Part shown: positions 10,640 through 22,050 of the stretch, in pieces
How positions within the stretch are numbered: position 1 is the stretch's first letter
How the letters are laid out: every line of letters begins with the position of its first letter
From: Planctomycetota bacterium
GTDB lineage: Bacteria; Planctomycetota; MHYJ01; JACQXL01
NCBI GenBank assembly: GCA_016208805.1
Contig: JACQXL010000155.1
Location: 1-42,758, forward strand
DNA: 42,758 nt
Reading direction: 5' to 3'
Translations under genes and position numbers: made by a program
Notes under the pieces: generated by a model
The model's database searches: none
Seen by the model: only the letters and a program-made list of their open reading frames with translations
What the model was told of the DNA's origin: nothing

Positions 10640-11584
10640 ATGAAACCTATACTGAAGACCGATATTCCCGTGCTCAAGAAACTCGGCCAGGGCAAGGTGC
10701 GCGATATATACGAGGTAGGCGAGAACTTGCTGGTAGTCACCACCGACCGCATCTCGGCATTTGATGTGGTCCTGCCGGACGGCATTCCATATAAGGGGGC
10801 CGTCTTAACGGCCCTGTCCACCTTCTGGTTCTACCTGATAAAGGACATCACCCCAACGCACTTCATCACCTCCGATTTTGATGAGATAGCCCGGCAGGTG
10901 CCGGCCGTAAAACCCTATAAAGACCAGTTAGTCGGTCGGACTATGTTGGTCAAAAAGGCAACCGTATTCCCGGTGGAATGCGTCGTGCGTGGCTATATCG
11001 CCGGCTCGGCTTGGGAGGAATACTCCAAGTCAGGCACGGTCCGCGGTGTACAACTGGTTGAGGGATTGAAGGAGTCAGACCAACTCAAGCCGACTCCGTC
11101 CACCAAGGCGGAAAAGGGGCATGATGAAAATATCTCATTTGAAAAGATGGCCGAGGTTATCGGCCCTGAACCGGCCAAGGAGTTGAAAGACCGGAGCATC
11201 AGGATATACGAAACGGCGCACAAGTATGCGCTGACCAAGGGCATTATTATATGCGACACTAAATTTGAGTGGGGCACGGTAAAAACAACCGGATTAAACA
11301 GGATTAAGCCGGATAATCCGTTAAATCAGTTAAATCCTGTTGTTGAAATTACGTTAGTGGATGAGGTGCTCACGCCGGATTCGTCCCGGTTCTGGCCCTC
11401 GGACGGCTATTTCCCCGGGAAGAGCCAGCCCTCGTTTGACAAGCAATTCGTTCGCGACTATCTGAAGGTCATCGGCTGGAATAAGACCCCGCCCGCGCCC
11501 AAACTGCCAGAAGAGATAATAAAGAAGACTTCGGAAAAATACTTGGAGGCCTACAAGCGGATAACCGGGCAGGAATTGGCCTAA
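10640..11584 (+). CDS. purC: phosphoribosylaminoimidazole-succinocarboxamide synthase (long form)
   Basis: GKVRDIYEVGENLLVVTTDRISAFD, CDTKFEWG and LVDEVLTPDSSRFW are SAICAR synthase motifs. Confidence 0.85.
   Translation: MKPILKTDIPVLKKLGQGKVRDIYEVGENLLVVTTDRISAFDVVLPDGIPYKGAVLTALSTFWFYLIKDITPTHFITSDFDEIARQVPAVKPYKDQLVGRTMLVKKATVFPVECVVRGYIAGSAWEEYSKSGTVRGVQLVEGLKESDQLKPTPSTKAEKGHDENISFEKMAEVIGPEPAKELKDRSIRIYETAHKYALTKGIIICDTKFEWGTVKTTGLNRIKPDNPLNQLNPVVEITLVDEVLTPDSSRFWPSDGYFPGKSQPSFDKQFVRDYLKVIGWNKTPPAPKLPEEIIKKTSEKYLEAYKRITGQELA
11278..11346. repeat. GGATTAA/AACAGGATT-type palindromic repeat inserted in frame within purC
   Basis: It encodes VKTTGLNRIKPDNPLNQLNPVV between the conserved FEWG and LVDEVLTPDSS. 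The same words (CGGATTAAGCGGATTAAACAG, TTAATCCTGTTGTT) occur in intergenic DNA at 8051-8074 and 19905-19929. Confidence 0.7.
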
Positions 11585-11655
11585 TCAGCAGGTCGGGACA
11601 AAGGGGTAACTACCCTTGAACTTTGCAACCTTTTGAACCCTTGCGTAGCCGTAGC

Positions 11656-11811
11656 GCCTGCCCGCCGCAGCCTTGGCGTAGGCGGGGAGTCCCGATAATC
11701 ATCGGGGCTGGTATCCGGTCAGGGGCGGAACTGAGAATTGTTTACCCGCCTCTGGAGGGCCTGCCACTCCGCAGCCCGTATGGGCGAAGGATGGGTGTTC
11801 CCGGAATTCGT
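11656..11811. repeat. ~150-bp GC-rich repeat element, copy 1 (GCCTGCCCG..GGCGGGGAGTCCCGATAATCATCGGGGCTGGTATCCGGTCAGGGGCGG..)
   Basis: Long near-identical stretch shared with 13183-13303 in the same orientation. The track ORF 11623..11880 is an artefact of this element. Confidence 0.8.
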
Positions 11812-11820
11812 AATCTTTGC

Positions 11821-11872
11821 TTGACAGCGGTTACCATACAAACTATCATATTAGCGTTATTGTATGGTAACC
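11821..11872 (+). promoter_or_regulatory. sigma70-type promoter TTGACA-N17-TATCAT with a 13-bp perfect inverted-repeat operator
   Basis: TTGACA 11821-11826 and TATCAT 11844-11849. GGTTACCATACAA (11829-11841) and TTGTATGGTAACC (11860-11872) bracket the -10. It lies 50 nt upstream of the 11901 ATG. Confidence 0.55.
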
Positions 11873-11900
11873 ATTATTAAGGCAAGCGAAAGGTTTTAAT

Positions 11901-12218
11901 ATGGGCGTGTTAAAAGGCGTGCTTAAAGAAGAGCTTCGGAATTCCCTCCAGATGAAAAATGATTATGAAAGGGAATTGGCTGAATTGCCCAGGGGGAGTT
12001 TGGCCAGGAAAAACATCAAAGGCCACAATTATTACTACCTGCAAATGCGCCGAAACGGGAAAGTAAAATTCATCTATAAAGGAAAACTCCCGGACTCGGA
12101 AATCGAGAAGTATCAGGAAGCCAAAAAATACCGCGCGAAATACCGGAAGTTATTATCACGGGTAAAAAAACAGATAAGGTTTTTAAGGAGCGCTCTGCGT
12201 GGAAAAGAATCAGTATAA
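11901..12218 (+). CDS. small basic protein, putative antitoxin/partner of the downstream nucleotidyltransferase
   Basis: 105 aa. It overlaps the next gene's GTG start by 20 nt, so the two look translationally coupled. The promoter/operator lies upstream. No family named with confidence. Confidence 0.55.
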   Translation: MGVLKGVLKEELRNSLQMKNDYERELAELPRGSLARKNIKGHNYYYLQMRRNGKVKFIYKGKLPDSEIEKYQEAKKYRAKYRKLLSRVKKQIRFLRSALRGKESV

Positions 12219-12554
12219 CTTATGCGTGGAAATCCTGAAACGGCTGCGACACGCCGGCGTTCTGAATGATATCATAGTCATCGGAAGTTGGTGCATTCCG
12301 TTTTATTCCGAATATTTCAGGGGCGTAAAATACATATCGGCCATAAAAACGCGCGACATTGATTTGCTCGTTCCCGCGCCGGGAAAACTTAAGGCAAGCG
12401 CGGATATCCCCGGCTTGGTAAAAGACCTGGGTTTTGTTATCGGCTACAAAGGAAGCAAGGGGTATATTAAGTTAGAGCATCCGGATTTGGTGATAGAATT
12501 CCTGGTGCCGGAAAAAGGCCGAGGCACGGATGAGCCGTATGCTTTGCCTAAGTT

Positions 12555-12768
12555 CTGAACTCTTGCGAAATGCCCCTTTTGTCATTCTGAACGAAGTCCG
12601 CCATAGGCGGACGGAGTGAAGAATCTCCGTTTTATGCGGATTTGGGACGAGATTCTTCGCCCTACGGGCTCAGAATGACACTTTTTGGGTGGTTTACGAG
12701 ATTCTTCGCCCTACGGGCTCAGAATGACACTTTTTGGGTGGTTTATTTCCCATTTCGCAAGAGTTCAG
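12555..12768. mobile_element. 214-bp MITE (GTCATTCTGA..GAAGAATCTC family) with 18-bp perfect terminal inverted repeats and a 6-bp TSD
   Basis: The TIRs are CTGAACTCTTGCGAAATG (12555-12572) and CATTTCGCAAGAGTTCAG (12751-12768). TAAGTT is present on both flanks (12549-12554 and 12769-12774). The element has no coding capacity. Confidence 0.85.
12648..12745. repeat. perfect 49-bp tandem duplication inside the MITE
   Basis: CGAGATTCTTCGCCCTACGGGCTCAGAATGACACTTTTTGGGTGGTTTA occurs twice back to back (12648-12696 and 12697-12745). Confidence 0.85.
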
Positions 12769-13182
12769 TAAGTTGGGGCTTAATGCGCAGGCCTTAAGGT
12801 TTTTAAATCTGCTTACGGAAAACACGATAAAAATCAACATTCAGGGTATTCCGGTAACGCTTCCGCATCCGGCCAACTTCGCCCTGCATAAACTGATAAT
12901 ATTCCAGAGAAGGAGAAATCCGGACAAAACAGCCAAAGACAAAGAAGCCGCCATAAACATATTAAAAGCGCTGGTTCATAAAGGTGATGTTGATGAAATC
13001 AGGAAGGTTTTCGACGCGCAACTATTCAAATGGCGTAAAAAGATAATATTGGGGCTGGAAAAATCACGGGAAAAGGAACTTCTGGATATCCTTCAACCCC
13101 GATAATCCCGGCAAAACTATCTTGCACTGCCGCAGAATAAACGGCTGAAAAAATAAATCCGTGCAATCTGCGTAACCGCAGT

Positions 13183-13303
13183 GCCTGCCCGTCCGTCAGG
13201 CGGGGAGTCCCGATAATCATCGGTGCTGGTATCCGGTCAGGGGCGGGATTGAGGATGGTCTGCCCGTCCCGCCGTGGCGGGAAGGGTGTCCCACGAATTG
13301 CGG
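13183..13303. repeat. ~150-bp GC-rich repeat element, copy 2 (direct orientation relative to 11656-11811)
   Basis: It shares GCCTGCCCG..GGCGGGGAGTCCCGATAATCATCGG(T)GCTGGTATCCGGTCAGGGGCGG..TTGAG.AT.GT with copy 1. Confidence 0.8.
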
Positions 13304-13314
13304 TGTCCCAAGAT

Positions 13315-13614
13315 ATGTCTAAAAAATCCATGGTTTCCAAATCGGCGGTACATCCCCCGCTCCCCGTGCTGGAGAAGTTCTTCCATAGAAACGGCTATGT
13401 GCGTGTGCAAAATTATAATCTAAAACAAAAACTTGGCGCCAAATACCATAAGGGTTGGGAGGTCCGCTTTGTTCTCAAGACGCCGAGAGAACTCACACAG
13501 GTTTACCAATTGCTCTGTGAAGCAGGTTTTAAGCCCGGCAATCCTTTTACAAAACATGGCTGGTTAATTCAGCCTGTTTACGGCAAACAAACGGTTGACT
13601 ACTTTCTATCTTGA
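13315..13614 (+). CDS. hypothetical protein (99 aa)
   Basis: ORF beyond the repeat. The track start (13249, TTG) lies within the repeat, so the ATG at 13315 is the likelier start. No confident family. Confidence 0.4.
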   Translation: MSKKSMVSKSAVHPPLPVLEKFFHRNGYVRVQNYNLKQKLGAKYHKGWEVRFVLKTPRELTQVYQLLCEAGFKPGNPFTKHGWLIQPVYGKQTVDYFLS

Positions 13615-13818
13615 ATTCCGGGGAACATACTACCGAATAAAACAGGAACTGGCAAGAGACAGGATTAATCCGTATAATTTGTATAATCTGTGGCTTGGAG
13701 AGAGGGACGTGGCCCGCATTTAATAATACGGGGCAGGCGTAAGTAAAATAAATACCGCCCGGGAAATAAGGAAAATAGCCCCTGCCCGCCTCTGGCGAGT
13801 ATCCATAGAATTAAACGG

Positions 13819-14085
13819 TTAGCAGGGTGTCCAAAAAGCCTGTCTGCGTGCGGGAACGCACAGGCAGGCCCCTTTTGTCATTCTGAACCCTTCGGCGGTT
13901 GTCATTCTGAGGGATGGCGCCAACGGCGCCAGACCGAAGAATCTCCGCCGCCTCATGGTAAACTCCGTGAAGAATCTGCCCTGAGCGAAGGGTCTACTAA
14001 CAATGTGAATAGAGATTCTTCGGCTCACGCCTCAGAATGACCATGCCATGCCGCATGGCGTGGCACTTTTTGGACACCCTGTTAG
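13819..14085. mobile_element. ~267-bp MITE-like element of the GTCATTCTGA..GAAGAATCTC family
   Basis: Terminal inverted repeats TTAGCAGGGTGTCCAAAAAG (13819-13838) and CTTTTTGGACACCCTGTTAG (14066-14085) match in 18 of 20 positions. Internally it has GTCATTCTGAG/GAAGAATCTC and inverted GAGATTCTTC/CTCAGAATGAC cores. Track ORF 13819..14028 is an artefact. Confidence 0.7.
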
Positions 14086-14102
14086 AAATTCAGTTCTACA
14101 TC

Positions 14103-14120
14103 CCCCCCACCGGTGGGGGG
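14103..14120. repeat. perfect 18-bp palindrome CCCCCCACCGGTGGGGGG
   Basis: Self-complementary when read directly. It lies immediately upstream of the 22-bp array. Confidence 0.8.
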
Positions 14121-14139
14121 TATGGTAGGGTCTGGTAGG

Positions 14140-14447
14140 GGGTAGCCCTGAACATCGTAGGGGTTTGCCCACAATCTGGCAGGGGGTAACCGCCCTATTC
14201 GTAGGGGTCGCCCGTCATACTCGTAGGTCTAACGACCCCATCTCGTGGGGCATTAGGCCAATACCCGTAGGGGGGTACCACAAACCTCGTCGGGGGTAGC
14301 CGCTTTATTAGTAGGGGTCGCCCGCCATACTCGTAGGTATCGCGACCCCATCTCGTGGGGAATTCGGCCAATACTCGTAGGGGTGCTGGACAAAACTCGT
14401 AGGGATAACCACCGATACTCGTAGGCATTAGACACTAATTTCGTAGA
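14140..14447. repeat. phased tandem array of fourteen 22-bp units (conserved 3' block ~ATACTCGTAGG, variable 5' half), iteron-like
   Basis: The region parses with no indel into 14 units, each ending in CGTAGG or a close variant. Units 3-7 (14184-14293) and 8-12 (14294-14403) form a 110-bp higher-order duplication. Confidence 0.85.
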
Positions 14448-14506
14448 CAACACTCCATAAAAAATGAGAAAAAGATTGTTTTTGTGGTCTTAAAAGAGGA
14501 TATTTG

Positions 14507-14534
14507 TTGATTTTAGTTGAGGGCTAATTATAAT
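14507..14534 (+). promoter_or_regulatory. candidate promoter TTGATT-N16-TATAAT at the start of the AT-rich block
   Basis: Hexamers read directly, with a consensus -10. It lies 15 nt upstream of the 14549 ATG and ~220 nt upstream of the methyltransferase ORF. Confidence 0.4.
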
Positions 14535-14548
14535 GACAGGTAAATTAT

Positions 14549-14683
14549 ATGCCAAATAAATATCAGGATTGGGATAAGGAAAAGTTAATCGCTGAGATTA
14601 AGCGGTTAAAGGAACAGAAGACATATGGCCTGGTCTGGGAACCTAAGACCGAGGAGGTTGTAGAAAAGTGCAAGACCCGATGA
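14549..14683 (+). CDS. 44-codon ORF resembling the N-terminus of Mod-type DNA methyltransferases (possible relic)
   Basis: MPNKYQDWDKEKLIAEIKRLKEQKTYGLVWEPKTEEVVEKCKTR. From memory, a coiled-coil followed by YGLVWE..EEVVE is typical of Mod/adenine-MTase N-termini. It is followed by an overlapping 26-codon ORF (14680-14760) in another frame. Confidence 0.3.
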   Translation: MPNKYQDWDKEKLIAEIKRLKEQKTYGLVWEPKTEEVVEKCKTR

Positions 14684-14752
14684 AACCGATTATCGTTGAC
14701 CACAAGGATAAGAATGTTAGAATTGTGGGGAAAGTGGAGCGGGTAATTAAAA

Positions 14753-15751
14753 ATGTATAGTAAAGCAGTCAAATATAAGAAGAAGACAAAAAAGAGACCC
14801 CAAATGGTACGAGAATTACAAGCCGAATATCAAGTTGCTACGTTGCCCATGGAAGAAAATCAGTTAGGACCAGTTATAAATAAAATTATCTGCGGTGATT
14901 CAGGGGAACTACTAAGGAAATTACCGAGTAATTTCGTTCATTTAATTATAACAAGTCCTCCTTATTTTGGTTGCAGGAGTTATGGCAATGAAACATTAGG
15001 CAGAGAAGAATCGCCTTTGGACTATGTTAATAATTTATTGAGATTTACTATTGAATTAAAAAGAGTCTTGCATAAAGAAGGATCTTTTTACTTGAATATC
15101 GGCGATGTTTATTTTGGAACCAAAGGGTTTATTAGAAATAAAGGAAGATACGCAAGAAAAACAGATATCCATTACAAAGAACATAAAATAATAAAACCTG
15201 ATGGTAAATATCTTCAATATAAGCAACTTTTAATGCTCCCCGAAAGAGTTGCCATGGGAATGCAAGAACAAGGATGGGTTTTACGCAATAAAATAATCTG
15301 GGAAAAACCTAATCCCGTGCCTTCTTACTCTCCTGATAGACGGTATCCTGTTTATGAACATATTTTTCATTTTGTAAAATCCAGAAGATATTACTTTGAT
15401 TTAGAAATTGCCAAAAAATTAAACAACCATAGAGACATTTACCGAAATGGTATTGAACCGTTCAAGGAACATCAGGCATCATACCCTGTTTCTCTTATAA
15501 AACCTTTAATTCTAACCACTTCAAAAGAGAATGATATTGTGTTAGACCCTTTTATGGGTAGTGGCACTACGGCAGTCGCTGCGATACTTAATAATCGCCG
15601 TTTTATCGGACTTGAAATTAATCAGGGGTTTTGCAAGATAGCCGAAGAAAGAATCAAAGAAACACAATCTTTGATAAATAACCGTTTACACCTTCAGGAT
15701 AAGCAATTAAATTGGAGTAAATCTTATGACGAAAAACAGATTATTTTCTAA
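14753..15751 (+). CDS. beta-class DNA amino-methyltransferase (N4-cytosine or N6-adenine; the SPPY motif favours N4-C)
   Basis: Motif IV IITSPPY lies near the N-terminus and motif I LDPFMGSGTT near the C-terminus, which is the beta permutation. The INKIICGDSGELLRKLP context also fits. The true start may be an internal Met (for example MVRELQ at 14804). Confidence 0.85.
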   Translation: MYSKAVKYKKKTKKRPQMVRELQAEYQVATLPMEENQLGPVINKIICGDSGELLRKLPSNFVHLIITSPPYFGCRSYGNETLGREESPLDYVNNLLRFTIELKRVLHKEGSFYLNIGDVYFGTKGFIRNKGRYARKTDIHYKEHKIIKPDGKYLQYKQLLMLPERVAMGMQEQGWVLRNKIIWEKPNPVPSYSPDRRYPVYEHIFHFVKSRRYYFDLEIAKKLNNHRDIYRNGIEPFKEHQASYPVSLIKPLILTTSKENDIVLDPFMGSGTTAVAAILNNRRFIGLEINQGFCKIAEERIKETQSLINNRLHLQDKQLNWSKSYDEKQIIF

Positions 15752-16886
15752 TAGCGATTATGTCAATTACTTAAAAGCGATTTGTTCGTTATCTAGATTA
15801 TTTACGGAGTCAAATATTCCTTATTTATATTATAGGGTTGCCGAGAATATATTTTGCAAGGCATTTGGTGCGGAAAATTTATCAAGAGATAATTTAGCAT
15901 ATGATGCGCGTGTAGGCGAGATAGGCATTGGAGTAAAGACATTTATTGATAAAGGAACGAATCCAGAAAAAATTACAGAGTTTAATGTATTTAGTAACCA
16001 ATTAAGGCGGTTGAATGGTAATGACCTTGCGGTTAAATTAGCGGAATTAAGAAATGAAAGGATTGACTTTGCAAATAGAACCTATGGAATTAAATCGGCT
16101 GTTTATCATTGTATCGCGCGAAAAGAAAAGTCATTAAGAATTTTTGAGACAGATTATGACTTAATTGATATCCCTAATATTAAAAAGACAAAATCCCGTG
16201 AAGCAAGTATTTTATTTGAGGATGGAAAAAATGAATATTCTTTTAACTTCTCCAAAACCACTTTATTTAAGAAATTTTATACTCCTCGTAATGCACTAAT
16301 AGTTGACATTGAAATATTAAACGACCCTTTAGCGCTTGTTTTACAATTATTTAATCAGCAAATTACGAAGCTATTAAAACGTAAAATAAAAGGAGTTAAT
16401 TTTGTAATTTTACCGTTGTACTCTTTAAGGGAAAGTAAAATTGGTCATAAAGTTGTTTCTGCGAAAAGTGGTCTAAATCAATGGAATGCGGGAGGTAGGC
16501 CAAGAGATACGGGAGAGGTTTATATTCCTGTGCCTAAGACCATTCACAATAAATTCCCAAGATTTTTCCCGAGTAGAGAAACGCCGTTTAACTTACATCT
16601 GCCTACCAGCGAAGTACTAAATGCGAAACTCTGTCAGGAAAACTCAAAAGCATTAATGACTAATCCTAATAATGCGCTTTCAGATTGGTTGTTAAGAAAA
16701 GTTTTGAAACTTAAAGACGGTGAATTACTTACCTATGAGCGGCTACGTTTATTAGGAATAGATAGCGTTAGAATTACTAAGATAAATGACCAGAATTTTA
16801 AGATTGATTTTACCAAAATTAACAGTTTTGATGACTTTGTAGAAGACAAAGACGAAACCGAGGAGATATATTATGACTTCAGATAA
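15726..16886 (+). CDS. putative restriction endonuclease/nuclease partner of the methyltransferase (family not recognised)
   Basis: It overlaps the MTase stop by 26 nt and has the same AT-rich composition. A possible PD-(D/E)xK-like segment is AYDARVGEIGIGVKTF. The call rests mainly on position. Confidence 0.5.
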   Translation: MTKNRLFSNSDYVNYLKAICSLSRLFTESNIPYLYYRVAENIFCKAFGAENLSRDNLAYDARVGEIGIGVKTFIDKGTNPEKITEFNVFSNQLRRLNGNDLAVKLAELRNERIDFANRTYGIKSAVYHCIARKEKSLRIFETDYDLIDIPNIKKTKSREASILFEDGKNEYSFNFSKTTLFKKFYTPRNALIVDIEILNDPLALVLQLFNQQITKLLKRKIKGVNFVILPLYSLRESKIGHKVVSAKSGLNQWNAGGRPRDTGEVYIPVPKTIHNKFPRFFPSRETPFNLHLPTSEVLNAKLCQENSKALMTNPNNALSDWLLRKVLKLKDGELLTYERLRLLGIDSVRITKINDQNFKIDFTKINSFDDFVEDKDETEEIYYDFR

Positions 16887-17943
16887 CAAACCACTTGAGG
16901 AGTTACCGACTCCTCGTTACTCAAAAGAAGAATGCGAAAAGATTGTCCAATATCTTATGAGCGTTAAGAGTGATTTAATTCGGGGATTCCTCGCAAGTCA
17001 TAATATCCTTGTTTCAGGAAAAAAACAGGAACTCCGTGAACGTGTAGAACAATGTCTCAAGGATGAGGAATTAGAGTATAAGGACTTGGTGAATTTTATA
17101 GACACGGTTGCGCCCTGTGGTAAGCAACATATCATTCTTTACGAAGGGCCGGAGTCGCAAGCGAAAAAGTGGAAGACAGACGGATATGTTAATAAGGTGT
17201 TAAAAGAAAAAGGGCTTTCAGAATACTTAAACGCCCGGCTGCCCCTGATACTGCCGGAGGTTCTGACTATTTCCTCAATCACCTATAAACCGGGCGAGGA
17301 ATTGAAGGTCTATGCCGTGGAGCGGCGCGATGATACCGACCGAAGAGAAGACCTTGATAAGGAAGAAACAATAGGCAATGAAAAGATTGAGTTCAGGGCG
17401 TATGCGCCCCAGGTCACTCGCGGTGTTGTTATTTTCACCTGGGATTTTCTTGGCAATACTGCGATGCTCCAGATTTCGCAACTGCCCAGCGGCTCGGCAT
17501 ACGAAGGAAAAGAGGAGAAATTTGCCGGGTTGATTAACGGCTGTTTAGATATGAACCAATTTGAGAAGATAGACATAAGGAGGGCTGTTAAAAAACTCAA
17601 TCAACTGGAGGCGGAAGACAAGCCGGAGGCGCGCTCGCACAGCATCGGCTATCACTCTCCCGGCGGCAGGAAACTTGATATCAAGAGCCCCTCATTGAGC
17701 CAGTCAGTTTTAGGCGAGAGTGCCTGGGACCACGGCTTAGGCGAGATACGAAAAGGGTCAATCGGGCACAGCGGCAACTTTTACTGGCTTGAGTCTTCCC
17801 AAAGCCCGGTTGACCATAACCCGCTTGAAGGAGAAGTCCATACTATCATTGTTGGCAGTAAAAGTCGGATAAATTTCACCACGCCCAATAGAAAAGAAGA
17901 TATAGAGTATGTTCTTTCCAGAGTGCGAGCGCTTAGCAAGTAG
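16873..17943 (+). CDS. SAP-domain protein with a large uncharacterised C-terminal region
   Basis: Residues ~33-62, LIRGFLASHNILVSGKKQELRERVEQCL, fit the SAP helix-extended loop-helix DNA-binding motif. The remaining ~290 aa are unassigned. It overlaps the upstream gene by 14 nt. Confidence 0.6.
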   Translation: MTSDNKPLEELPTPRYSKEECEKIVQYLMSVKSDLIRGFLASHNILVSGKKQELRERVEQCLKDEELEYKDLVNFIDTVAPCGKQHIILYEGPESQAKKWKTDGYVNKVLKEKGLSEYLNARLPLILPEVLTISSITYKPGEELKVYAVERRDDTDRREDLDKEETIGNEKIEFRAYAPQVTRGVVIFTWDFLGNTAMLQISQLPSGSAYEGKEEKFAGLINGCLDMNQFEKIDIRRAVKKLNQLEAEDKPEARSHSIGYHSPGGRKLDIKSPSLSQSVLGESAWDHGLGEIRKGSIGHSGNFYWLESSQSPVDHNPLEGEVHTIIVGSKSRINFTTPNRKEDIEYVLSRVRALSK

Positions 17944-18880
17944 ACATCCTGACTTGAAAGATATAATTATCCGGATAGACGAATTATTGTCATCCTGCGG
18001 GCATTCGTCTGTTTTTAATCCGGATGACATCGCCAGTTTATTCGGGGAAAGGGAAAGCCGTATCCGAGGTGTCTTTGAGGGTCTGGTAAAAACGGGTTTA
18101 GTCCAAGAGGTAAAATATTTGGAATGTCCTGAATGCGAGACCCTGCTGGAGATTGCGTCTCGTGAAAAAGCCATAGAGAAAGAAGAAGATTTTGAATGCA
18201 CGCAATGCCAGAAAGACCTTTCCGGCTTGGCTCTTACTGAAACTACGAGGTATAGATTAAATCCGGCAATTAAAAATGTCCGGATAAGTCAACCAGTCCA
18301 ACAGTCCGCTCCAAAAACAGAACCTTCCCCCAAAATATATTCTTATGTTATTACCGAGAATGACCGCCAAGACCTGACGCAAGAACTGTATAAGAATTTT
18401 ATTGGCGATGTTGAGAAGAATCATTCTTACGATATGTTTATTGACGGCGTCAGAGATAATCGTCCCTGTTATAAAAAAGATAAAAACGGAAAAATAAAAA
18501 AGAGTAATCTTACTATAATAGGATTTGCAATTACCCGGGAATATATTGAAACTGGTAAAGCAATGCTTCCGGGCGCTACAGAATCAATCAAGCAATATAA
18601 TAAAGCCGCAAAAGAAGCAAAAGAAGCCCGTGGCGGGCGACTTGACAAGGAGAAAATTGGCGATGGCACAGCGCTGGATTATTTGGAAGATGCCCGCCGT
18701 AAGGTGGACATTAATCTTGGGCAAGGTAAGGGGTTTCGTGCATTTAAGCGCGGCAAAGAAATAAGCATATCTACCGCGTCCGACATCTTCCAGTTCAAGC
18801 CGCCACCAGACCTAAAATATGCTCTTATCTGCCCTGCCGAATCTCTCTCATCTACTCCATTGGCTACGGATAAAAAATAA
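17909..18880 (+). CDS. uncharacterised protein with wHTH-like N-terminus and a CPEC..CTQC zinc ribbon
   Basis: GVFEGLVKTGLVQEVKYLECPECETLLE..FECTQCQ, followed by a Lys-rich C-terminal half. It overlaps the upstream gene by 35 nt. Confidence 0.55.
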   Translation: MFFPECERLASRHPDLKDIIIRIDELLSSCGHSSVFNPDDIASLFGERESRIRGVFEGLVKTGLVQEVKYLECPECETLLEIASREKAIEKEEDFECTQCQKDLSGLALTETTRYRLNPAIKNVRISQPVQQSAPKTEPSPKIYSYVITENDRQDLTQELYKNFIGDVEKNHSYDMFIDGVRDNRPCYKKDKNGKIKKSNLTIIGFAITREYIETGKAMLPGATESIKQYNKAAKEAKEARGGRLDKEKIGDGTALDYLEDARRKVDINLGQGKGFRAFKRGKEISISTASDIFQFKPPPDLKYALICPAESLSSTPLATDKK

Positions 18881-19018
18881 AAGACCCCTCTTTCCCATTA
18901 CCGGTTAGATAATAAATTTCCTGTCAAAATCCTCTGGTCATCCCCTCATTTTCCCCTCGTCTTTGTGTAATATATGGTTAGGGAACACATAAGGTGTTTC
19001 TGGAAGGAGTATATTACT

Positions 19019-19591
19019 ATGATAGATGAAAAATGCTATGCGAAATGCTTCAGCGCAAAGGATTTTGAGAAACTGCTCAGACACGGGGAAACCAATGATA
19101 TGGAATGGTTCAGACCTGTCTTTGGATTGCTTCAGAATAAGATAGGATGGTTAAGACAGGAGCAATTCTCTAAACCCGGCGGTATTGTGGAGAGTATCGT
19201 TGCATTCCAAGGATTAAAGGAACTGAATATCAGGAATGAAGTTACAGATAAATTAGTGAAGATATTCAGACGCAACCCGGCAATCAGGGAAGGTATGATA
19301 TCATATCTGTTTCTATTGATGATACCGCCACTGAAGAATATCGGCTGTCATTATTGTGAAACAATTATGCCGGTCTATGACCCTTTTTCTGAGGCGTATT
19401 TTGGGGATTATAAGGCAATAGCCAAGGGTAAATTTAAGAAAGGTGACATCATACTGGCAAGTATTATCCGCCGTGTCAGGGCGCATCTCTTTCGTTTATC
19501 CCAAAGGGAAAGCAAACTCAACCGATTCAGAAGTAGTATATCAATAGAAGAGATTGAACAAAGTCTTGATAAGGATGATGATTGGGAATAA
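19019..19591 (+). CDS. hypothetical protein (190 aa)
   Basis: The ATG at 19019 has GGAAGGAG 8 nt upstream; the track start at 18974 is less likely. It is AT-rich like the preceding four genes. No family recognised. Confidence 0.5.
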   Translation: MIDEKCYAKCFSAKDFEKLLRHGETNDMEWFRPVFGLLQNKIGWLRQEQFSKPGGIVESIVAFQGLKELNIRNEVTDKLVKIFRRNPAIREGMISYLFLLMIPPLKNIGCHYCETIMPVYDPFSEAYFGDYKAIAKGKFKKGDIILASIIRRVRAHLFRLSQRESKLNRFRSSISIEEIEQSLDKDDDWE

Positions 19592-19594
19592 TAG

Positions 19595-19929
19595 CCACAG
19601 ATAAAAAATAACCTGTGGCAAGAAAGGACAAACTTATGTTTAAGTCAATGTCCGGTTTCTGGCGGAAGGTTGTTAAGGCGATAATTGAAATCGTCTTGGA
19701 CCTGCTCCAGAAAAGGAACCACAGATGAACACGAGCCACAGATTACACAGATTCGCTTTGTGGACTTTGTGGTGAAAACAACCACAGTCCGGTCGGGGCT
19801 GTCTACAGGTGCCACCCCGAAACAACATCGGGGAGCAAGGCACAGACAGCCCCTCCGGCTGTTTATATAAACAACGGAATTTAACCGATTGAACAGATTT
19901 TCCGTTCAATCCTGCTTAATCCTGTTGTT
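19595..19929. repeat. dense cluster of CCACAGAT/CACGGATT/AATCCTGTTGTT word-like palindromic repeats
   Basis: Contains the CCACAGATAAAAAATAACCTGTGG hairpin (19595-19618), CCACAGATGAACACGAGCCACAGATTACACAGATT..CTTTGTGGACTTTGTGGTG (19719-19780) and TTAATCCTGTTGTT (19916-19929). Related copies occur at 980-998, 8051-8074, 13650-13700 and 20738-20805. Confidence 0.7.
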
Positions 19930-19944
19930 AGAAAGGAAACGAAA

Positions 19945-20736
19945 ATGATACACACTAAAATACTGGTTCCGGTTGCGCCGTCCGTGACGCCGCACCCGGA
20001 TATGTCCACCAAGCGCGTGGAGACGCTCAAGAATGATGCGGAGATTATCAATGACCGGCGTAAGGCCCGTGTGCCGGACGAGGGCACCTATGCCCAGTTG
20101 ATTTCTCCGGCGGCGGATAAGTTTAAGGAACGGGTTAACTTCCCGACCCCGACCCAGGGAGACCGTAACGCCGATGACATCTACACGATGCAACGTTCCA
20201 AAATCACCAGGGCCTACACCAAATATAACGATGGCCTTGACTATGCCTTTGAGGAGGTGGATGGAGTCGTTGCCAAACGGTTTAAGGACAAGGTTGACGC
20301 CTCGCAGTCCAACTGGGACGAAGAGGCGGCCAAAGGGACTTTACGATTTACCGGCTCACGCGCCAGAGGCCGTCAGGTTGCATCCGTGATGGGTTACTGG
20401 CTGACCGGCGACCAGCAGGCGCTTCAGCGACTGCCGGAAGGCTCCATTGTTGTGGCCGGCGGTCCTTATGACATCGCCCTGGCAGACCTTAAGGCAACCT
20501 TAAGGACGTCTATGACCCAAATCCTCGTCCAGACCGGGATAATTATCTCGGAGTCGGGCTATCACCCGGATATGTTCACCCGGCATAACACTAGAATTAA
20601 GAATATGCTGGAGAAACTGTCCGACCCGCTCAAGGCCGCGGCCTGGGTAACAACCAGAATAGCGGATAAGTCCTACTGCGTCTGGTTCGTGGAGGACGGG
20701 CAACTGAAACTGGAGACACAGATTTATACGGCGTAG
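19945..20736 (+). CDS. hypothetical protein (263 aa)
   Basis: Long ORF with AAAGGAAA upstream and GC-richer codon usage than the 14.7-19.6 kb block. No family recognised. Confidence 0.5.
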   Translation: MIHTKILVPVAPSVTPHPDMSTKRVETLKNDAEIINDRRKARVPDEGTYAQLISPAADKFKERVNFPTPTQGDRNADDIYTMQRSKITRAYTKYNDGLDYAFEEVDGVVAKRFKDKVDASQSNWDEEAAKGTLRFTGSRARGRQVASVMGYWLTGDQQALQRLPEGSIVVAGGPYDIALADLKATLRTSMTQILVQTGIIISESGYHPDMFTRHNTRIKNMLEKLSDPLKAAAWVTTRIADKSYCVWFVEDGQLKLETQIYTA

Positions 20737-20737
20737 C

Positions 20738-20805
20738 GTGAAACCACAGATAAACACAGATGGACACGGATTAATCTCTGTGTCCTCTGTGCCTCTGTGG
20801 ATAAT
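20738..20805. repeat. imperfect palindromic CCACAGA..CTCTGTGG repeat
   Basis: CCACAGATAAACACAGATGGACACGG-ATTAAT-CTCTGTGTCCTCTGTGCCTCTGTGG; the two arms are roughly complementary. Confidence 0.7.
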
Positions 20806-20817
20806 GGAGATAAGACA

Positions 20818-21036
20818 ATGAAGCAATGCGAAGCATTAACCAAGAAAGGTAAACGGTGTAAAAACCCGGCTTTCTATCTGGATGAAGAAACCAAATTGTA
20901 TGTATGTCCCGATCATAAGTTCGGGAATGCGAAAGGAGTGAATCATTATGGCAAGGACTTTGTACGACCGACTCAACGAAATCAAAACCAAGCACTTAAA
21001 CCCGCAATCGGTTACGGGCGAAAAAGTCGCGCTTAA
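20818..21036 (+). CDS. small Cys/His-containing protein (72 aa), overlaps the next gene by 89 nt
   Basis: MKQCEALTKKGKRCKNPA..YVCPDHK suggests a small zinc-binding fold. The 3' third overlaps the 20948 CDS in another frame, so whether it is real is uncertain. Confidence 0.35.
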   Translation: MKQCEALTKKGKRCKNPAFYLDEETKLYVCPDHKFGNAKGVNHYGKDFVRPTQRNQNQALKPAIGYGRKSRA

Positions 21037-22045
21037 CGCGATAGAGGAAAAGCATATCAAGGATAACTCGGTCACCAGGCGCAAGATTGTTGACGGCGTC
21101 ATCGGCAAGGACGAGATAGCGGACGGCTCGGTTGTTACCAGCAAACTGGCCGGCAGTGCCGTAACCACGGACAAGATAGCGGATACGGTGATTAGCACGG
21201 CCAAACTGCAGGATGGCAGTGTTACCGCGCCCAAGATTGCATCCGGCGCAATCACCACGGATAAGATTGCTAACGGCGCGATTACCAGGGACAAGGTGGC
21301 CGACCGTTCAGTTGGAACCGATGATTTGGTGGATGGCGCTGTGACCAATCCCAAGATTGCGACCAATGCGGTAACGCAAGGAAAAATTGCGCCAAATTCT
21401 ATAGGTGGTAGCGAGTTGATAGACGGCGCAGTTGCCGAGCGGGAACTATCTTCAGCCGCAGTAACACCGGTTAAACTATCCGCCATTGATGCGCCCGCAG
21501 ACGGCGAGGTGCCCGCCTATAATCAGGCACAGGCAAAGTTTGAGTGGAAACCGGCCGCTGGTGTGAGCCGACCATTAGTCCCGCCAATCGCCACTGCAGA
21601 AATAGGAGACGCCCAGGTGACACCGGCGAAACTCTCATTTACTCCGGTCAGCAGACCGCTTGTCCCGCCGGCTACCCCTGCTGAGATGGAAGACAGATTC
21701 TCCATCGCCCTGAACGTCCTGGTGTTTTCTAATCTCACTAATGCCTCAGTGCCGAATACCGAGATAGACGTTTCGGGATACGTGCCACCGGATACGAGAT
21801 ACGCGATATGCGTTATGACGCACGCGGGCGCCAGTACGATACTCTACGGCTACAAGGCCCAGTTTTATACCAAGCCGACCGTTGACCCGGCCCCGCTGTA
21901 TCGGTTAGACACGGCGGCTAAGGACTTCACCAATTACCTGACGGTGTTAGTTCCGTTGGACGCGAACAGACGTTTTGTAACATCAGTATACCGTGACGGT
22001 GTAACTACTACTGCAGAATTATACTTGATGGGGTATGTCAGGTAA
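20948..22045 (+). CDS. tail-fibre-like / surface protein with ~15 tandem decapeptide repeats ([VI]TxxK[IL]AxG[AS])
   Basis: AAAGGAG lies 9 nt upstream. Residues ~20-178 are a 10-aa periodic array (VTTDKIADTV ISTAKLQDGS VTAPKIASGA ITTDKIANGA ...), as seen in phage tail fibres. The C-terminal ~185 aa are non-repetitive. Confidence 0.65.
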   Translation: MARTLYDRLNEIKTKHLNPQSVTGEKVALNAIEEKHIKDNSVTRRKIVDGVIGKDEIADGSVVTSKLAGSAVTTDKIADTVISTAKLQDGSVTAPKIASGAITTDKIANGAITRDKVADRSVGTDDLVDGAVTNPKIATNAVTQGKIAPNSIGGSELIDGAVAERELSSAAVTPVKLSAIDAPADGEVPAYNQAQAKFEWKPAAGVSRPLVPPIATAEIGDAQVTPAKLSFTPVSRPLVPPATPAEMEDRFSIALNVLVFSNLTNASVPNTEIDVSGYVPPDTRYAICVMTHAGASTILYGYKAQFYTKPTVDPAPLYRLDTAAKDFTNYLTVLVPLDANRRFVTSVYRDGVTTTAELYLMGYVR

Positions 22046-22050
22046 CTCAG

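What the first reader, a model, noticed from the sequence alone, without database searches (positions are those of the whole stretch)
14753..18880. Four translationally coupled genes in an AT-rich block: SPPY methyltransferase, putative nuclease, SAP-domain protein, wHTH/zinc-ribbon protein (candidate undescribed multi-gene restriction/defence system)
Seen in sequence: four consecutive + strand ORFs overlap by 26, 14 and 35 nt (15726/15751, 16873/16886, 17909/17943), so they look like one operon. The block is visibly AT-rich, with A/T-ending codons, compared with both flanks. ORF1 is a beta-class amino-MTase (TSPPY then DPFMGSGTT). ORF2 sits where a cognate endonuclease would, but I cannot place it in any named REase family. 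ORF3 starts with a clear SAP DNA-binding motif (LIRGFLASHNILVSGKKQELRERVEQCL), followed by ~290 residues with no recognisable domain. ORF4 combines a wHTH-like segment with a CPEC..CTQC zinc ribbon and a Lys-rich tail. Inference: an ordinary type II R-M system needs only the first two genes. Two extra coupled DNA-binding-type proteins suggest either a larger restriction/defence machine or a novel accessory, regulatory or sensor module. The neighbouring 19019..19591 orphan shares the composition and may belong to the same unit.
Basis: partly seen in the sequence, partly recalled or inferred. Interest (0 to 1): 0.75.

Follow-up and report, generated by a model that had tools for sequence, protein, structure and literature searches.

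The report
RM pair plus undescribed two-gene module
The four overlapping genes are not one machine: an ordinary restriction-modification pair sits directly upstream of a separate, widespread and apparently undescribed two-gene module, a DNA-binding 'sensor' plus a partner with a swappable output domain, which is found in prophages and defence islands and is probably a new phage-exclusion system.

Summary
The four ORFs and their 26, 14 and 35 nt overlaps are real, but they are two units.

**ORF1/ORF2: an ordinary type II R-M pair**
- ORF1 is a beta-class N6/N4 methyltransferase and ORF2 is a NgoFVII-family endonuclease with a B3-like C-terminal domain.
- The pair is 33% GC against 43-47% for ORF3/ORF4. 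No ORF2 homologue was found in the 57 other loci checked.

**ORF3/ORF4: a strict two-gene module**
- 51 of 51 ORF3-family loci have an ORF4-type N-domain downstream. 71 of 73 loci fetched through ORF4 have ORF3 directly upstream.
- The overlap is conserved (32 or 35 nt in 37 of 41 loci), and the two proteins co-diverge (Mantel r 0.89).
- ORF3 is a SAP domain followed by a domain that is absent from Pfam, NCBIfam, PADLOC and PHROGs. Its confident model (pLDDT 93) matches the RdgC/CENP-N fold, which lambda RexA also has.
- ORF4 is a wHTH plus four-Cys zinc ribbon followed by a variable C-terminus. Variants include several HTH types, patatin, PNP, alpha/beta-hydrolase and a Rossmann domain.

**Context of the module**
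- Neighbours include serine recombinases, LexA-like or ImmA-type repressors, and type I R-M operons; in one case the module lies between hsdR and hsdS.

**Reading**
- My best reading is a Rex-like DNA-sensing exclusion module. Its function is inferred, not shown.
- ORF5 belongs to a different block.

The parts
14696..14723 (+). Promoter-like site (TTGACC, 16 nt spacer, TG-TAGAAT) about 30 nt upstream of ORF1. It is a candidate promoter for the whole co-oriented block in this window.
   Evidence: 10 of 12 matches. This is a consensus match only, and the number of sites in the region is not above the shuffled expectation. No convincing + strand terminator lies between ORF1 and ORF4.
14753..15751 (+). 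ORF1: beta-class amino-methyltransferase (SPPY motif IV before FxGxG motif I). This is the M subunit of a type II R-M pair.
   Evidence: Pfam N6_N4_Mtase 9.9e-48. PADLOC MTase_II 7.9e-75. GC 33.7% and GC3 27.6%.
15726..16886 (+). ORF2: NgoFVII-family type II restriction endonuclease with a C-terminal B3-like DNA-binding domain (aa 241-353).
   Evidence: PADLOC REase_II PDLC03479 at 1e-136, aa 8-373. Pfam RE_NgoFVII_C at 7.3e-10, above the cut-off. RefSeq-annotated plasmid homologues at 44-47% identity. GC 32.5%.
16873..17943 (+). ORF3: the conserved 'sensor' protein of the two-gene module. It has a SAP domain (aa 33-63, nt 16969-17061) followed by an uncharacterised domain of about 270 aa (aa 84-356, nt 17122-17940) with a predicted RdgC/RexA/CENP-N-like fold.
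   Evidence: 282 close homologues. 846 representatives of 50%-identity clusters at E<=1e-3. 35 invariant columns in 38 sequences. AF2 model with pLDDT 93.2 and pTM 0.89. Foldseek top hits are RdgC, CENP-N and Iml3 and phage RdgC. SAP detected in 33 of 38 members. No hit for the C-terminal domain in Pfam, NCBIfam, PADLOC or PHROGs.
17909..17943 (+). Dual-coding overlap of 35 nt. ORF3's conserved C-terminus (YVLSRVRALSK*) and ORF4's conserved N-terminus (MFFPECERLA) are read from the same bases, with ORF4 in the +1 frame.
   Evidence: The overlap is 35 nt in 19 loci, 32 nt in 18, 53 nt in 3 and 44 nt in 1, out of 41 loci. All values are 2 mod 3. Both peptides are conserved.
17909..18268 (+). ORF4 N-terminal domain (aa 1-120): wHTH-like helices plus a four-Cys zinc ribbon (C73, C76, C97, C100; nt 18125-18208). 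This is the part that always accompanies ORF3 and is a probable ORF3-coupling or DNA-binding adaptor.
   Evidence: Found downstream of ORF3 homologues in 51 of 51 loci that have sequence there. Reciprocal association in 71 of 73 loci. The Cys residues are invariant. Weak wHTH hits to Crp, MarR, TrmB, TFIIE/TFE and Zalpha. Mantel r 0.89 against ORF3.
18338..18856 (+). ORF4 C-terminal output domain (aa 144-316). It is one of many alternative C-termini in the family, it is basic, and its fold is unknown.
   Evidence: Homologous only to L042 and L012 (about 31% identity), where it has the same N-domain, and to P0122 (61% identity), where it carries a different N-terminus. No Pfam or PADLOC hit. 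pI 9.1. The single-sequence AF2 model is unusable, with pLDDT 37.7.
19019..19591 (+). ORF5 (the longest ORF starts at 18974). It is not part of the ORF3/ORF4 module. It belongs to a block made of ORF4's C-domain, ORF5, the 263-aa ORF and the tail-fibre-like 365-aa ORF, which is shared with another Planctomycetota contig.
   Evidence: 76% identical to the gene after P0122 in L058, with alignment starting at ORF5 aa 16. No homologue next to ORF3 homologues in any other locus. No family hit.

Best explanation
The locus is a composite of independent cassettes in a small genomic island (about 11.6-22.8 kb, between SAICAR synthase and the ACS/CODH genes) of a Planctomycetota MAG.

(1) ORF1/ORF2 are a self-sufficient type II restriction-modification pair: a beta-class N4/N6 methyltransferase plus a NgoFVII-family endonuclease with a B3-like DNA-binding domain. 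The pair was acquired separately (33% GC) and now abuts ORF3, so the four genes are probably co-transcribed in this window.

(2) ORF3/ORF4 are a separate, strictly linked and widespread two-gene module that is not in the current family or defence libraries.

Inferred mechanism of the module:
- ORF3 is a SAP domain fused to an RdgC/RexA-like DNA-binding fold. It would act as a DNA sensor, for example of incoming or aberrant DNA.
- ORF4's invariant wHTH/zinc-ribbon N-domain would couple to ORF3.
- ORF4's interchangeable C-terminal domain would deliver the output. Depending on the variant, that output is DNA binding or transcriptional interference, or an enzymatic attack (patatin lipase, PNP-type nucleosidase, alpha/beta-hydrolase or a Rossmann enzyme).

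The logic is that of lambda cI-rexA-rexB: a lysogen-expressed or island-expressed exclusion or abortive-infection pair, often placed behind a DNA-damage-responsive repressor. The differences are soluble plug-in outputs in place of a membrane channel.

Shown: the two-unit architecture, the strict ORF3-ORF4 linkage, domain swapping at ORF4's C-terminus, and the mobile-element and R-M context. Inferred: DNA sensing, an ORF3-ORF4 interaction, and an anti-phage function.
For: **Two units**
- Composition steps at the ORF2/ORF3 junction.
- ORF2 and ORF1 hit standard R-M models over their full length.
- None of the 57 other loci held at that point contains an ORF2 homologue.
- The closest ORF3 relative, L004 at 73% identity, has no ORF of 40 aa or more on the same strand in the 545 bp upstream and no ORF1/ORF2 match.

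**Strict pair**
- 51 of 51 ORF3-family loci have the ORF4 N-domain.
- 71 of 73 loci fetched with an ORF4-only pattern have ORF3 directly upstream.
- The overlap of 32 or 35 nt is conserved.
- Mantel r is 0.89, with 0 of 500 permutations reaching it.
- Fusion proteins exist: P0216 (ORF3 + ORF4N + PNP-like) and P0228 (EEP-like + ORF3).

**Fold**
- The model has pLDDT 93.
- It consistently matches RdgC, CENP-N and Iml3. This is the same set of structural relatives reported for lambda RexA (PMC11077077).

**Output swapping**
- Pfam finds AdoHcyase_NAD-like Rossmann, Patatin, alpha/beta-hydrolase and PNP_UDP_1.
- It also finds Rrf2 and MarR wHTH domains and HTH_17.
- The PNP domain matches the CBASS PN effector in PADLOC at 1e-17.

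**Context**
- 17 IMG/VR viral contigs carry the pair, mostly near a contig end.
- In 90 loci of at least 5 kb: serine recombinase in 30, LexA/S24 repressor in 24 (several overlapping ORF3 by 4 nt), ImmA/IrrE (CapP-like) in 10, and type I R-M in 14.
- One locus has hsdR-ORF3h-ORF4h-hsdS-hsdM.
- Mrr, SLFN/AlbA_2 and helicase genes are neighbours in other loci.
Against: - There is no experimental evidence of any kind for this family.
- There is no sequence-level link to RexA or RdgC. hhalign gives probabilities of about 0.1%, and there is no Pfam RexA or RdgC hit.
- Foldseek TM-scores are only 0.33-0.46, and RexA itself is not among the 50 listed hits.
- ORF4 has no membrane segment, so it is not RexB-like.
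- The commonest ORF4 C-termini are small HTH-like domains (42 of 67 in one subclade), not toxic enzymes. That also fits a regulatory role.
- The window's own ORF4 C-domain has no known function. It recurs without ORF3 in L058.
- Neighbourhood counts come from BLAST against a few reference proteins and crude ORF calls. No background defence-enrichment statistic was computed.
- The family is absent from cultured phages and from PLSDB plasmids.
Confidence: 0.6

Rival explanations
1. All four genes (with or without ORF5) form one integrated multi-gene restriction or defence machine. ORF3 and ORF4 would be obligate DNA-binding subunits or regulators of the ORF1/ORF2 enzyme pair.
For: The genes are on the same strand and overlap by 26, 14 and 35 nt, with no + strand terminator-like site of note between them. 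The pair recurs beside R-M systems in other genomes.
Against: No ORF2 homologue was found in the 57 other loci checked. ORF3/ORF4 mostly occur with recombinase and repressor genes and no R-M. GC3 is 27% for the R-M pair against 51% for ORF3. ORF1 and ORF2 match complete stand-alone R-M models. ORF5 is linked to a different block.
Confidence: 0.04
2. ORF3/ORF4 are a regulatory module of temperate phages and integrative elements, not an immune system. An RdgC-like protein would modulate RecA-dependent cleavage of the adjacent LexA/cI-like repressor, or bias the lysis-lysogeny switch as RexA does in lambda. It would work with a wHTH/HTH transcription factor (ORF4).
For: A LexA/S24 repressor lies directly upstream in 24 of 90 loci and often overlaps ORF3 by 4 nt. 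ImmA/IrrE plus XRE pairs lie upstream in about 10 loci. Most ORF4 C-termini are HTH-like. RdgC inhibits RecA functions and RexA biases the lambda switch (as summarised in PMC11077077).
Against: ORF4 variants carry patatin, PNP (related to a CBASS effector), alpha/beta-hydrolase and Rossmann domains, and there is an EEP fusion to ORF3. These are hard to explain as switch regulators. The pair also occurs away from any repressor, inside or beside R-M operons and next to Mrr and SLFN genes, including in this window.
Confidence: 0.2
3. ORF3/ORF4 are an R-M-linked 'guard', like the PrrC-EcoprrI arrangement. They would be held silent by, or would monitor, a neighbouring restriction enzyme and fire when phage anti-restriction proteins disable it.
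For: The pair is embedded between hsdR and hsdS/hsdM in one lineage. It is contiguous with hsdR or with hsdRMS-Mrr in others. In this window it abuts a type II R-M pair. The window's closest full-context relatives (L005, L006, L007, L008) all have restriction-type neighbours.
Against: R-M genes are detectable in only 14 of 90 loci. The R-M types differ (type I, type II, Mrr), which argues against a specific protein partner. There is no similarity to PrrC or RloC.
Confidence: 0.1
4. ORF3/ORF4 are a toxin-antitoxin-like addiction module that stabilises mobile elements. ORF4 would be the toxin and ORF3 the neutraliser, with no role in sensing phage.
For: It is a tightly overlapping two-gene operon on mobile elements with enzymatic C-termini in some members. 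The island also holds a disrupted nucleotidyltransferase of the AbiEii/NTP_transf_8 type.
Against: ORF3 is large (about 350 aa), unusually conserved (35 invariant columns across phyla) and built like a DNA-binding protein. Many ORF4 outputs are HTH domains, not toxins.
Confidence: 0.05

Closest known systems
Lambda RexA/RexB and RexAB-type prophage exclusion systems (lambda; actinophages Sbash, CarolAnn and Butters; P. putida prophage P1)
   Same: - Both are two-gene operons.
- The first protein has the RdgC/Iml3/CENP-type fold and DNA-binding features. The ORF3 model matches RdgC, CENP-N and Iml3, and RexA is reported to have these same relatives (PMC11077077).
- Both are often placed directly after a cI/LexA-type S24 repressor near a prophage end.
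- New RexAB-type systems have been recognised by structure rather than by sequence (PMC12894663).
   Different: - There is no sequence similarity to RexA.
- ORF3 has an extra N-terminal SAP domain.
- The partner is a soluble wHTH/zinc-ribbon protein with interchangeable C-terminal domains, not a polytopic membrane protein.
- The two genes overlap by 32 or 35 nt.
- The module is found in archaea and many bacterial phyla, and also inside R-M operons.
RdgC (recombination-associated, ring-shaped DNA-binding protein) and phage RdgC homologues
   Same: RdgC gives the best structural matches for ORF3 over about 340 aligned columns: 2owl and 2owy at E 2.5e-5 to 1e-4, and phage RdgC at E 4e-6.
   Different: - There is no sequence-level similarity.
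- TM-scores are only 0.35-0.46.
- RdgC is a stand-alone housekeeping gene with no SAP domain and no obligate partner.
'RdgC histone' operon of Bacillus and Halobacteria (histone, RdgC-like protein, winged-helix/TM protein; PMC11390915)
   Same: Both pair an RdgC-like protein carrying extra terminal domains with a partner that begins with a winged-helix domain, in a conserved operon of unknown function.
   Different: That operon has a histone-fold first gene and a transmembrane partner. Homology to ORF3/ORF4 was not tested here.
Type II R-M systems of the NgoFVII/BfiI kind (for ORF1/ORF2 only)
   Same: A beta-class N6_N4 MTase sits next to an endonuclease with the NgoFVII C-terminal B3-like domain. 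ORF2 matches a PADLOC REase_II model over its full length.
   Different: Nothing is unusual about the pair. Its recognition sequence and the catalytic PLD motif were not determined.
PrrC-EcoprrI and other defence genes embedded in type I R-M operons
   Same: The module is inserted between hsdR and hsdS/hsdM in one lineage and is contiguous with hsd genes in others.
   Different: There is no anticodon-nuclease or ABC-ATPase domain. Most family members are not next to R-M genes.
Defence families with one conserved core and swappable effector domains (e.g. Lamassu LmuA; CBASS effectors)
   Same: The conserved ORF3 and ORF4 N-domain are combined with alternative patatin, PNP, hydrolase and HTH C-termini. 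The PNP domain is homologous to the CBASS PN effector.
   Different: There is no SMC, CD-NTase or other signature protein, and no PADLOC hit for ORF3 or for the ORF4 N-domain.

Membership tests
Type II restriction-modification system (ORF1/ORF2) | Amino-methyltransferase with catalytic (S/D)PPY and AdoMet-binding FxGxG motifs | tested here: met
   TSPPY and DPFMGSGTT are present in beta-class order. Pfam N6_N4_Mtase scores 163 bits against a cut-off of 26.7. PADLOC MTase_II scores 7.9e-75.
Type II restriction-modification system (ORF1/ORF2) | Adjacent cognate endonuclease of a recognised REase family | tested here: met
   PADLOC REase_II scores 1e-136 over the full length. Pfam RE_NgoFVII_C is above its cut-off. 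Homologues are annotated as NgoFVII-family or PLD REases.
Type II restriction-modification system (ORF1/ORF2) | Catalytic PLD (HxK) motif, cleavage activity and recognition sequence | not tested
   The N-terminal half matches REase models (PDLC03446, 2.4e-31). I did not map the catalytic motif. Activity and methylome data need experiments.
RexAB-type exclusion system | RexA-family sequence (Pfam RexA, or detectable homology to lambda RexA) | tested here: not met
   ORF3 and 38 family members hit no Pfam family other than SAP-type domains beyond scattered matches in one or two members. hhalign of the family profile against lambda RexA gives a probability of 0.07%.
RexAB-type exclusion system | First protein with the RdgC-like two-domain DNA-binding fold | tested here: met
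   Foldseek of the pLDDT-93 model gives RdgC, CENP-N and Iml3 as top hits, with probabilities of 0.97-1.0 for the RdgC and human CENP-N entries. This is fold level only, with TM 0.33-0.46, and RexA itself is not among the listed hits.
RexAB-type exclusion system | Second protein a polytopic membrane effector (RexB-like) | tested here: not met
   The Kyte-Doolittle 19-residue maximum is 0.70 for the window ORF4. Most family members fall below 1.6.
RexAB-type exclusion system | Location in a prophage immunity region, downstream of the cI-type repressor | tested here: inconclusive
   This is met in many relatives: LexA/S24 is upstream in 24 of 90 loci, and 17 viral contigs carry the pair. It is not met in this window, where an R-M pair is upstream and no repressor or integrase was seen nearby.
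RexAB-type exclusion system | Exclusion of superinfecting phage by growth arrest | not testable with these tools
   This needs phage challenge experiments.
RdgC family (Pfam RdgC) | Sequence membership | tested here: not met
   No Pfam RdgC hit. No PDB sequence hit to 2owl or 2owy. hhalign against E. coli RdgC gives a probability of 0.14%.
SAP domain proteins | SAP helix-extended-helix motif | tested here: met
   33 of 38 family members hit Pfam SAP, with a best E-value of 1.1e-8. The window protein scores 18.3 bits, below the cut-off. The profile hits SAP-domain PDB chains weakly. Model helices lie at aa 33-42 and 51-63.
Any defence system catalogued in PADLOC-DB v2.0.0 | HMM match of ORF3 or ORF4 to a system component | tested here: not met
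   ORF3, the archaeal homologue P0040 and several ORF4 homologues give no hit. The window ORF4 has only a 0.0087 hit to HEC-08 over its zinc ribbon. Only the swapped-in PNP domain matches an effector model.
PrrC-type R-M-embedded guard | Embedded in or contiguous with an hsd operon | tested here: inconclusive
   This is true for L007 and the P0019 locus, L006, L002, L022, L051 and L032. R-M genes are present in only 14 of 90 loci. The window has a type II pair, not a type I system.

The most novel reading that the evidence does not exclude
ORF3/ORF4 would define a new, phylogenetically broad family of immune modules, found from methanogens to Planctomycetota, Acidobacteriota, Chloroflexota and their prophages. 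A SAP-tagged RdgC/RexA-fold DNA clamp would sense foreign or damaged DNA. It would switch on a partner whose wHTH/zinc-ribbon adaptor carries plug-in outputs: lipase, nucleosidase, hydrolase or DNA-binding domains. That would generalise the long-unexplained lambda Rex principle beyond membrane channels. Some lineages would be wired into type I R-M operons as a second line of defence.
Probability: 0.4. Interest if true: 0.8.

Novelty: new variant of a known kind. Interest (0 to 1): 0.62.

Why it matters
If the ORF3/ORF4 pair is an exclusion system, it adds a widespread family. There are at least 846 clusters at 50% identity, almost all from uncultured lineages, and none is seen by Pfam, NCBIfam, PADLOC or PHROGs.

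It would also link three things that are each poorly understood:
- the RdgC fold;
- lambda RexA, whose trigger is still unknown about 70 years after the rII exclusion experiments;
- SAP domains in prokaryotes.

The natural series of output domains on a constant adaptor gives a direct handle on how the sensor talks to its effector. The hsdR-pair-hsdS/M arrangement offers a test case for cooperation between restriction and a back-up system.

For annotation, the practical lesson is that tight overlaps between genes do not prove one system. Here a foreign R-M cassette has been placed directly against an older two-gene unit.

Tried and rejected
**Word-indexed protein searches.** The search for ORF4 and for its N-domain profile found only 4 and 5 proteins. 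I reached the family through loci next to ORF3 homologues instead.

**Structure prediction of ORF4.** The single-sequence model that followed is unusable (pLDDT 37.7), so no fold search was run for ORF4. An alignment of the permitted proteins (P0121-P0129) would have been a better use of it.

**Sequence-level tests of the Rex/RdgC link.** All were negative: hhalign against lambda RexA and E. coli RdgC, a PDB profile search, and Pfam on 38 members.

**Other collections.** PDB phmmer for ORF2 found nothing. Cultured phage genomes and PLSDB plasmids hold no ORF3 homologue.

**Metagenome scan.** A subclade alignment worked, but it biases that sample towards one subclade.

**Weak leads on ORF4.**
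- The ORF4 C-domain profile against PDB gave only a weak HGPRT PRPP-loop-like match (E 0.3). I treat it as a lead, not a finding.
- The ORF4 N-domain against PDB gave only weak wHTH and Zn-finger-like matches.

**Signals in the window.**
- The promoter and terminator scan shows nothing above the shuffled expectation.
- There are no tRNA genes in the window and no Rfam families in 11000-23000.

**Rejected ideas.**
- ORF5 as part of the module.
- The 49-bp duplication alone as the cause of the split nucleotidyltransferase gene. Removing one copy does not restore the ORF.

**Literature.** Searches combining 'SAP domain' or RdgC with defence terms found no description of this module.

Full report
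**1. The observation**

All four + strand ORFs exist at the stated coordinates and overlap by 26, 14 and 35 nt. The block is AT-rich relative to its flanks, but the composition falls in two steps.
- ORF1 and ORF2 are 33.7% and 32.5% GC, with GC3 about 27%.
- ORF3 is 46.6% GC (GC3 51%), ORF4 42.7% and ORF5 39.8%.
- The flanking genes are 51-55% GC.

The window is a 42,758-bp contig of a Planctomycetes MAG (source names). Housekeeping genes flank the region. ProRS, RuvC and SAICAR synthase lie upstream and ACS/CODH lies downstream. The region at roughly 11.6-22.8 kb is therefore a small genomic island.

**2. ORF1/ORF2 are an ordinary type II R-M pair**

ORF1 carries TSPPY before DPFMGSGTT, which is the beta-class order. 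It matches Pfam N6_N4_Mtase (9.9e-48) and a PADLOC type II MTase model (7.9e-75).

- It matches a PADLOC type II REase model end to end (1e-136).
- It has the NgoFVII C-terminal B3-like DNA-binding domain above Pfam's cut-off.
- It has plasmid homologues at 44-47% identity that RefSeq names NgoFVII-family or PLD-domain restriction endonucleases.

I did not map the catalytic motif or infer the recognition site.

**3. ORF3/ORF4 are a separate, strictly linked two-gene module**

*Family size and conservation of ORF3.*
- ORF3 has 282 close homologues of near-constant length, about 351-357 aa.
- A profile search finds 846 representatives of 50%-identity clusters at E<=1e-3, and 543 at E<=1e-10.
- Hosts include Planctomycetota, WOR-3, Acidobacteriota, Chloroflexota, Actinomycetes, Spirochaetes, Myxococcota and three methanogen lineages.
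- 35 alignment columns are invariant in 38 diverse members.

*Linkage with ORF4.*
- I fetched 36 genome loci and 17 viral-contig loci by ORF3 similarity, and 3 more by exact-protein look-up.
- Every locus with sequence downstream of the ORF3 homologue encodes the ORF4 N-terminal domain there: 51 of 51.
- I then fetched 80 metagenomic loci with a pattern taken only from the ORF4 N-domain.
  - 71 have an ORF3 homologue directly upstream.
  - 7 have no upstream sequence.
  - 2 lack an ORF3 homologue.

*Other signs that the two genes are one unit.*
- The gene overlap is conserved: 35 nt in 19 loci, 32 nt in 18, 53 nt in 3 and 44 nt in 1. It is always in the same relative frame.
- The conserved ORF3 C-terminus (YVLSRVRALS) and the conserved ORF4 N-terminus (MFFxECxxLA) are therefore dual-coded.
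- Pairwise identities of the two proteins are correlated (Mantel r 0.89; the highest of 500 permutations was 0.20).
- Two fusion proteins exist. P0216 joins ORF3, the ORF4 N-domain and a PNP-like domain. P0228 joins an endonuclease/exonuclease/phosphatase-like N-terminus to ORF3.

*Independence from the R-M pair.*
- No ORF2 homologue was found in the 57 other loci held when this was checked.
- The closest ORF3 relative, L004 at 73% identity, has no ORF of 40 aa or more on the same strand in the 545 bp upstream and no ORF1/ORF2 match.

**4. What the two proteins are**

*ORF3.*
- It has an N-terminal SAP domain. 33 of 38 members hit Pfam SAP, with a best E-value of 1.1e-8. The window protein's own hit is sub-threshold.
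- A domain of about 270 aa follows. It has no match in Pfam, NCBIfam, PADLOC or PHROGs.
- The alignment-based AlphaFold2 model is confident (pLDDT 93.2, pTM 0.89).
- Foldseek against PDB gives RdgC (2owl, 2owy; E 2.5e-5 to 1e-4), CENP-N and Iml3 as the only significant matches.
- Foldseek against BFVD puts phage RdgC proteins on top (E 4e-6).
- TM-scores are modest (0.33-0.46), and hhalign finds no sequence relationship to RdgC or lambda RexA.
- The crystal-structure paper on lambda RexA reports exactly this set of structural relatives for RexA: RdgC and Iml3/Chl4. It also shows that RexA homologues bind DNA non-specifically (PMC11077077).

*ORF4.*
- The conserved N-terminal domain is about 120 aa.
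- It has helices that give weak winged-helix matches to Crp, MarR, TrmB, TFIIE/TFE and Zalpha.
- It has a zinc ribbon with four invariant cysteines.
- A variable C-terminus follows.

| ORF4 C-terminal type | Where seen |
|---|---|
| Rossmann domain, AdoHcyase_NAD-like | L001, L006, L007, L140 |
| Patatin | L029 |
| Alpha/beta-hydrolase (weak, below Pfam's cut-off) | L024 |
| PNP_UDP_1, homologous to the CBASS PN effector (1e-17) | L030; BLAST-clustered with L025 |
| Rrf2-type wHTH | BLAST cluster of 9 loci; Pfam hit tested in L017 |
| MarR-type wHTH | L041 |
| HTH_17 | P0126 |
| Short HTH-like domain | 42 of 67 in one subclade |
| Several unknown types | various |

- Most members, including the window protein, have no membrane segment.
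- The window's own C-domain (aa 144-316) has no known family.
  - It recurs with the same N-domain in L042 and L012, at about 31% identity.
  - It recurs with a different N-terminus in P0122, at 61% identity.

**5. Context of the module**

- In 90 family loci of at least 5 kb, BLAST against a few annotated references gives these lower-bound counts.

| Neighbour | Loci (of 90) |
|---|---|
| Large serine recombinase | 30 |
| LexA/cI-type S24 repressor | 24 |
| Type I R-M genes | 14 |
| ImmA/IrrE metallopeptidase, with an XRE HTH beside it in 9 | 10 |

- The S24 repressor is usually the gene directly upstream, and in several loci it overlaps ORF3 by 4 nt.
- PADLOC calls five of the nearest neighbours CapP-like.
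- 17 IMG/VR viral contigs carry the pair, mostly near a contig end.
- In one lineage the order is hsdR, ORF3 homologue, ORF4 homologue, hsdS, hsdM.
- Other arrangements include hsdR-hsdM-hsdS-Mrr-pair in the cultured Thermostilla marina and hsdRMS-XRE-ImmA-pair.
- Other loci place the pair next to SLFN/AlbA_2, ResIII helicases and two Mrr-type genes.
- These are prophage immunity regions and defence islands, which are where lysogen-expressed exclusion genes usually sit.

**6. ORF5**

ORF5 has no family hit.
- Its only homologue in the fetched loci is in L058.
- There the order P0122, ORF5-like, 265-aa and 387-aa genes matches ORF4's C-domain, ORF5, the 263-aa ORF and the tail-fibre-like 365-aa ORF in the window.
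- Amino-acid identity is 48-76% and nucleotide identity is 71%.
- No ORF3 or ORF4 N-domain is present in L058.
- ORF5 therefore travels with ORF4's C-terminal domain, not with the ORF3/ORF4 module.

**7. Interpretation**

*Shown.*
- The locus is a mosaic.
- ORF1/ORF2 are a complete R-M pair.
- ORF3/ORF4 are an independent, co-evolving pair with a swappable output domain, carried by mobile elements and sometimes placed within R-M operons.

*Inferred.* ORF3 is a DNA-binding sensor made of a SAP domain and an RdgC/RexA-like clamp. It controls ORF4 through ORF4's wHTH/zinc-ribbon domain, in the manner of lambda cI-rexA-rexB. The outputs are soluble and interchangeable instead of a membrane channel.

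*Probabilities I assign.*

| Reading | Probability |
|---|---|
| Defence or exclusion reading | about 0.6 |
| Regulatory role in the lysis-lysogeny or SOS response | about 0.2 |
| R-M-linked guard variant of the defence reading | about 0.1 |
| Toxin-antitoxin-like addiction module | about 0.05 |

- The regulatory reading is supported by the repressor linkage and by the predominance of HTH outputs.
- The four-gene machine is contradicted by its own stated refutation test.

**8. Novelty**

None of the four libraries (Pfam, NCBIfam, PADLOC v2.0.0, PHROGs) recognises the ORF3 core domain or ORF4. No paper in the held library links a SAP or RdgC-like protein of this kind to defence.

The nearest described systems are the RexAB-type pairs. 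Membership fails on sequence and on the membrane partner, so I file the module as a new variant of that kind rather than as a member. The R-M pair itself is already known biology.

**9. Caveats**

- Fold similarity is moderate and comes from a predicted model.
- ORF4 has no usable model.
- Gene calls in the loci are my own crude ORF calls.
- Context counts are lower bounds with no background statistic.
- The metagenome sample is biased towards one subclade.
- Nothing here is experimental.

Noticed in passing
window 12199-13105 (ORFs 12199-12558 and 12734-13105; repeat 12647-12745): A nucleotidyltransferase gene of the NTP_transf_8 (AbiEii-like toxin) type is split into two ORFs. The gap holds a perfect 49-bp x 2 tandem repeat. 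Removing one copy does not restore the reading frame, so the gene looks disrupted by an inserted repeat element. The overlapping 105-aa ORF upstream (11901-12218) may be its partner.
   Followed up: partly
window 12656-12680, 12705-12729 (+) and 42699-42723 (-): The 25-nt core TTCGCCCTACGGGCTCAGAATGACA of that repeat occurs three times in the window, against zero expected by chance. This suggests a dispersed MITE/REP-like element in this genome.
   Followed up: partly
window 14182-14425: A tandem repeat of 110 bp x about 2 (79-88% matching) lies in the stretch between about 13.6 and 14.75 kb that has no convincing gene, just upstream of the R-M pair. It may mark the insertion boundary of the AT-rich cassette.
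   Followed up: no
window 18338-22045 and L058 6265-9950: A block made of ORF4's C-domain, ORF5, a 263-aa ORF and a 365-aa ORF with tail-fibre-like repeats (phrog_892, 9e-30) is shared with another Planctomycetota contig. Nucleotide identity is 71% and the chromosomal location differs. L058 also carries an MTase and an RE_MjaI gene a few kb upstream. The function of this block is unknown.
   Followed up: partly
the P0019 locus (no DNA held) and L007 7203-15577: The ORF3/ORF4-type pair lies between hsdR and hsdS/hsdM of a type I R-M operon. All genes are co-oriented with gaps of under 50 nt. This resembles the embedded prrC arrangement.
   Followed up: partly
proteins P0216 (717 aa) and P0228 (693 aa): These are natural fusions. 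P0216 joins ORF3, the ORF4 N-domain and a PNP-like domain in one chain. P0228 places an endonuclease/exonuclease/phosphatase-like domain in front of the ORF3 domain. They could also be assembly or frameshift artefacts.
   Followed up: partly
window 18338-18856 (ORF4 C-domain; alignment A6): A four-sequence profile of this domain gives a weak match (E 0.3) to the PRPP-binding loop region of HGPRT (query '...LtaielailkeyieaGkpm' against chain '...LTGKNVLIVEDIIDTGKTM'). The canonical acidic pair is not conserved. This is a lead only.
   Followed up: partly
L012, L021, L041, L042, L047 (LexA-like gene and ORF3 homologue): In several loci the LexA/S24 repressor gene overlaps the ORF3 homologue by 4 nt (ATGA). 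This implies a three-gene operon of repressor, ORF3 homologue and ORF4 homologue that would probably be DNA-damage responsive.
   Followed up: partly
literature: PMC11390915: A conserved operon in Bacillus and Halobacteria is described in the literature. It encodes a histone-fold protein, an RdgC-like protein with extra terminal domains, and a winged-helix/transmembrane protein. Its architecture echoes ORF3/ORF4. Homology was not tested.
   Followed up: no
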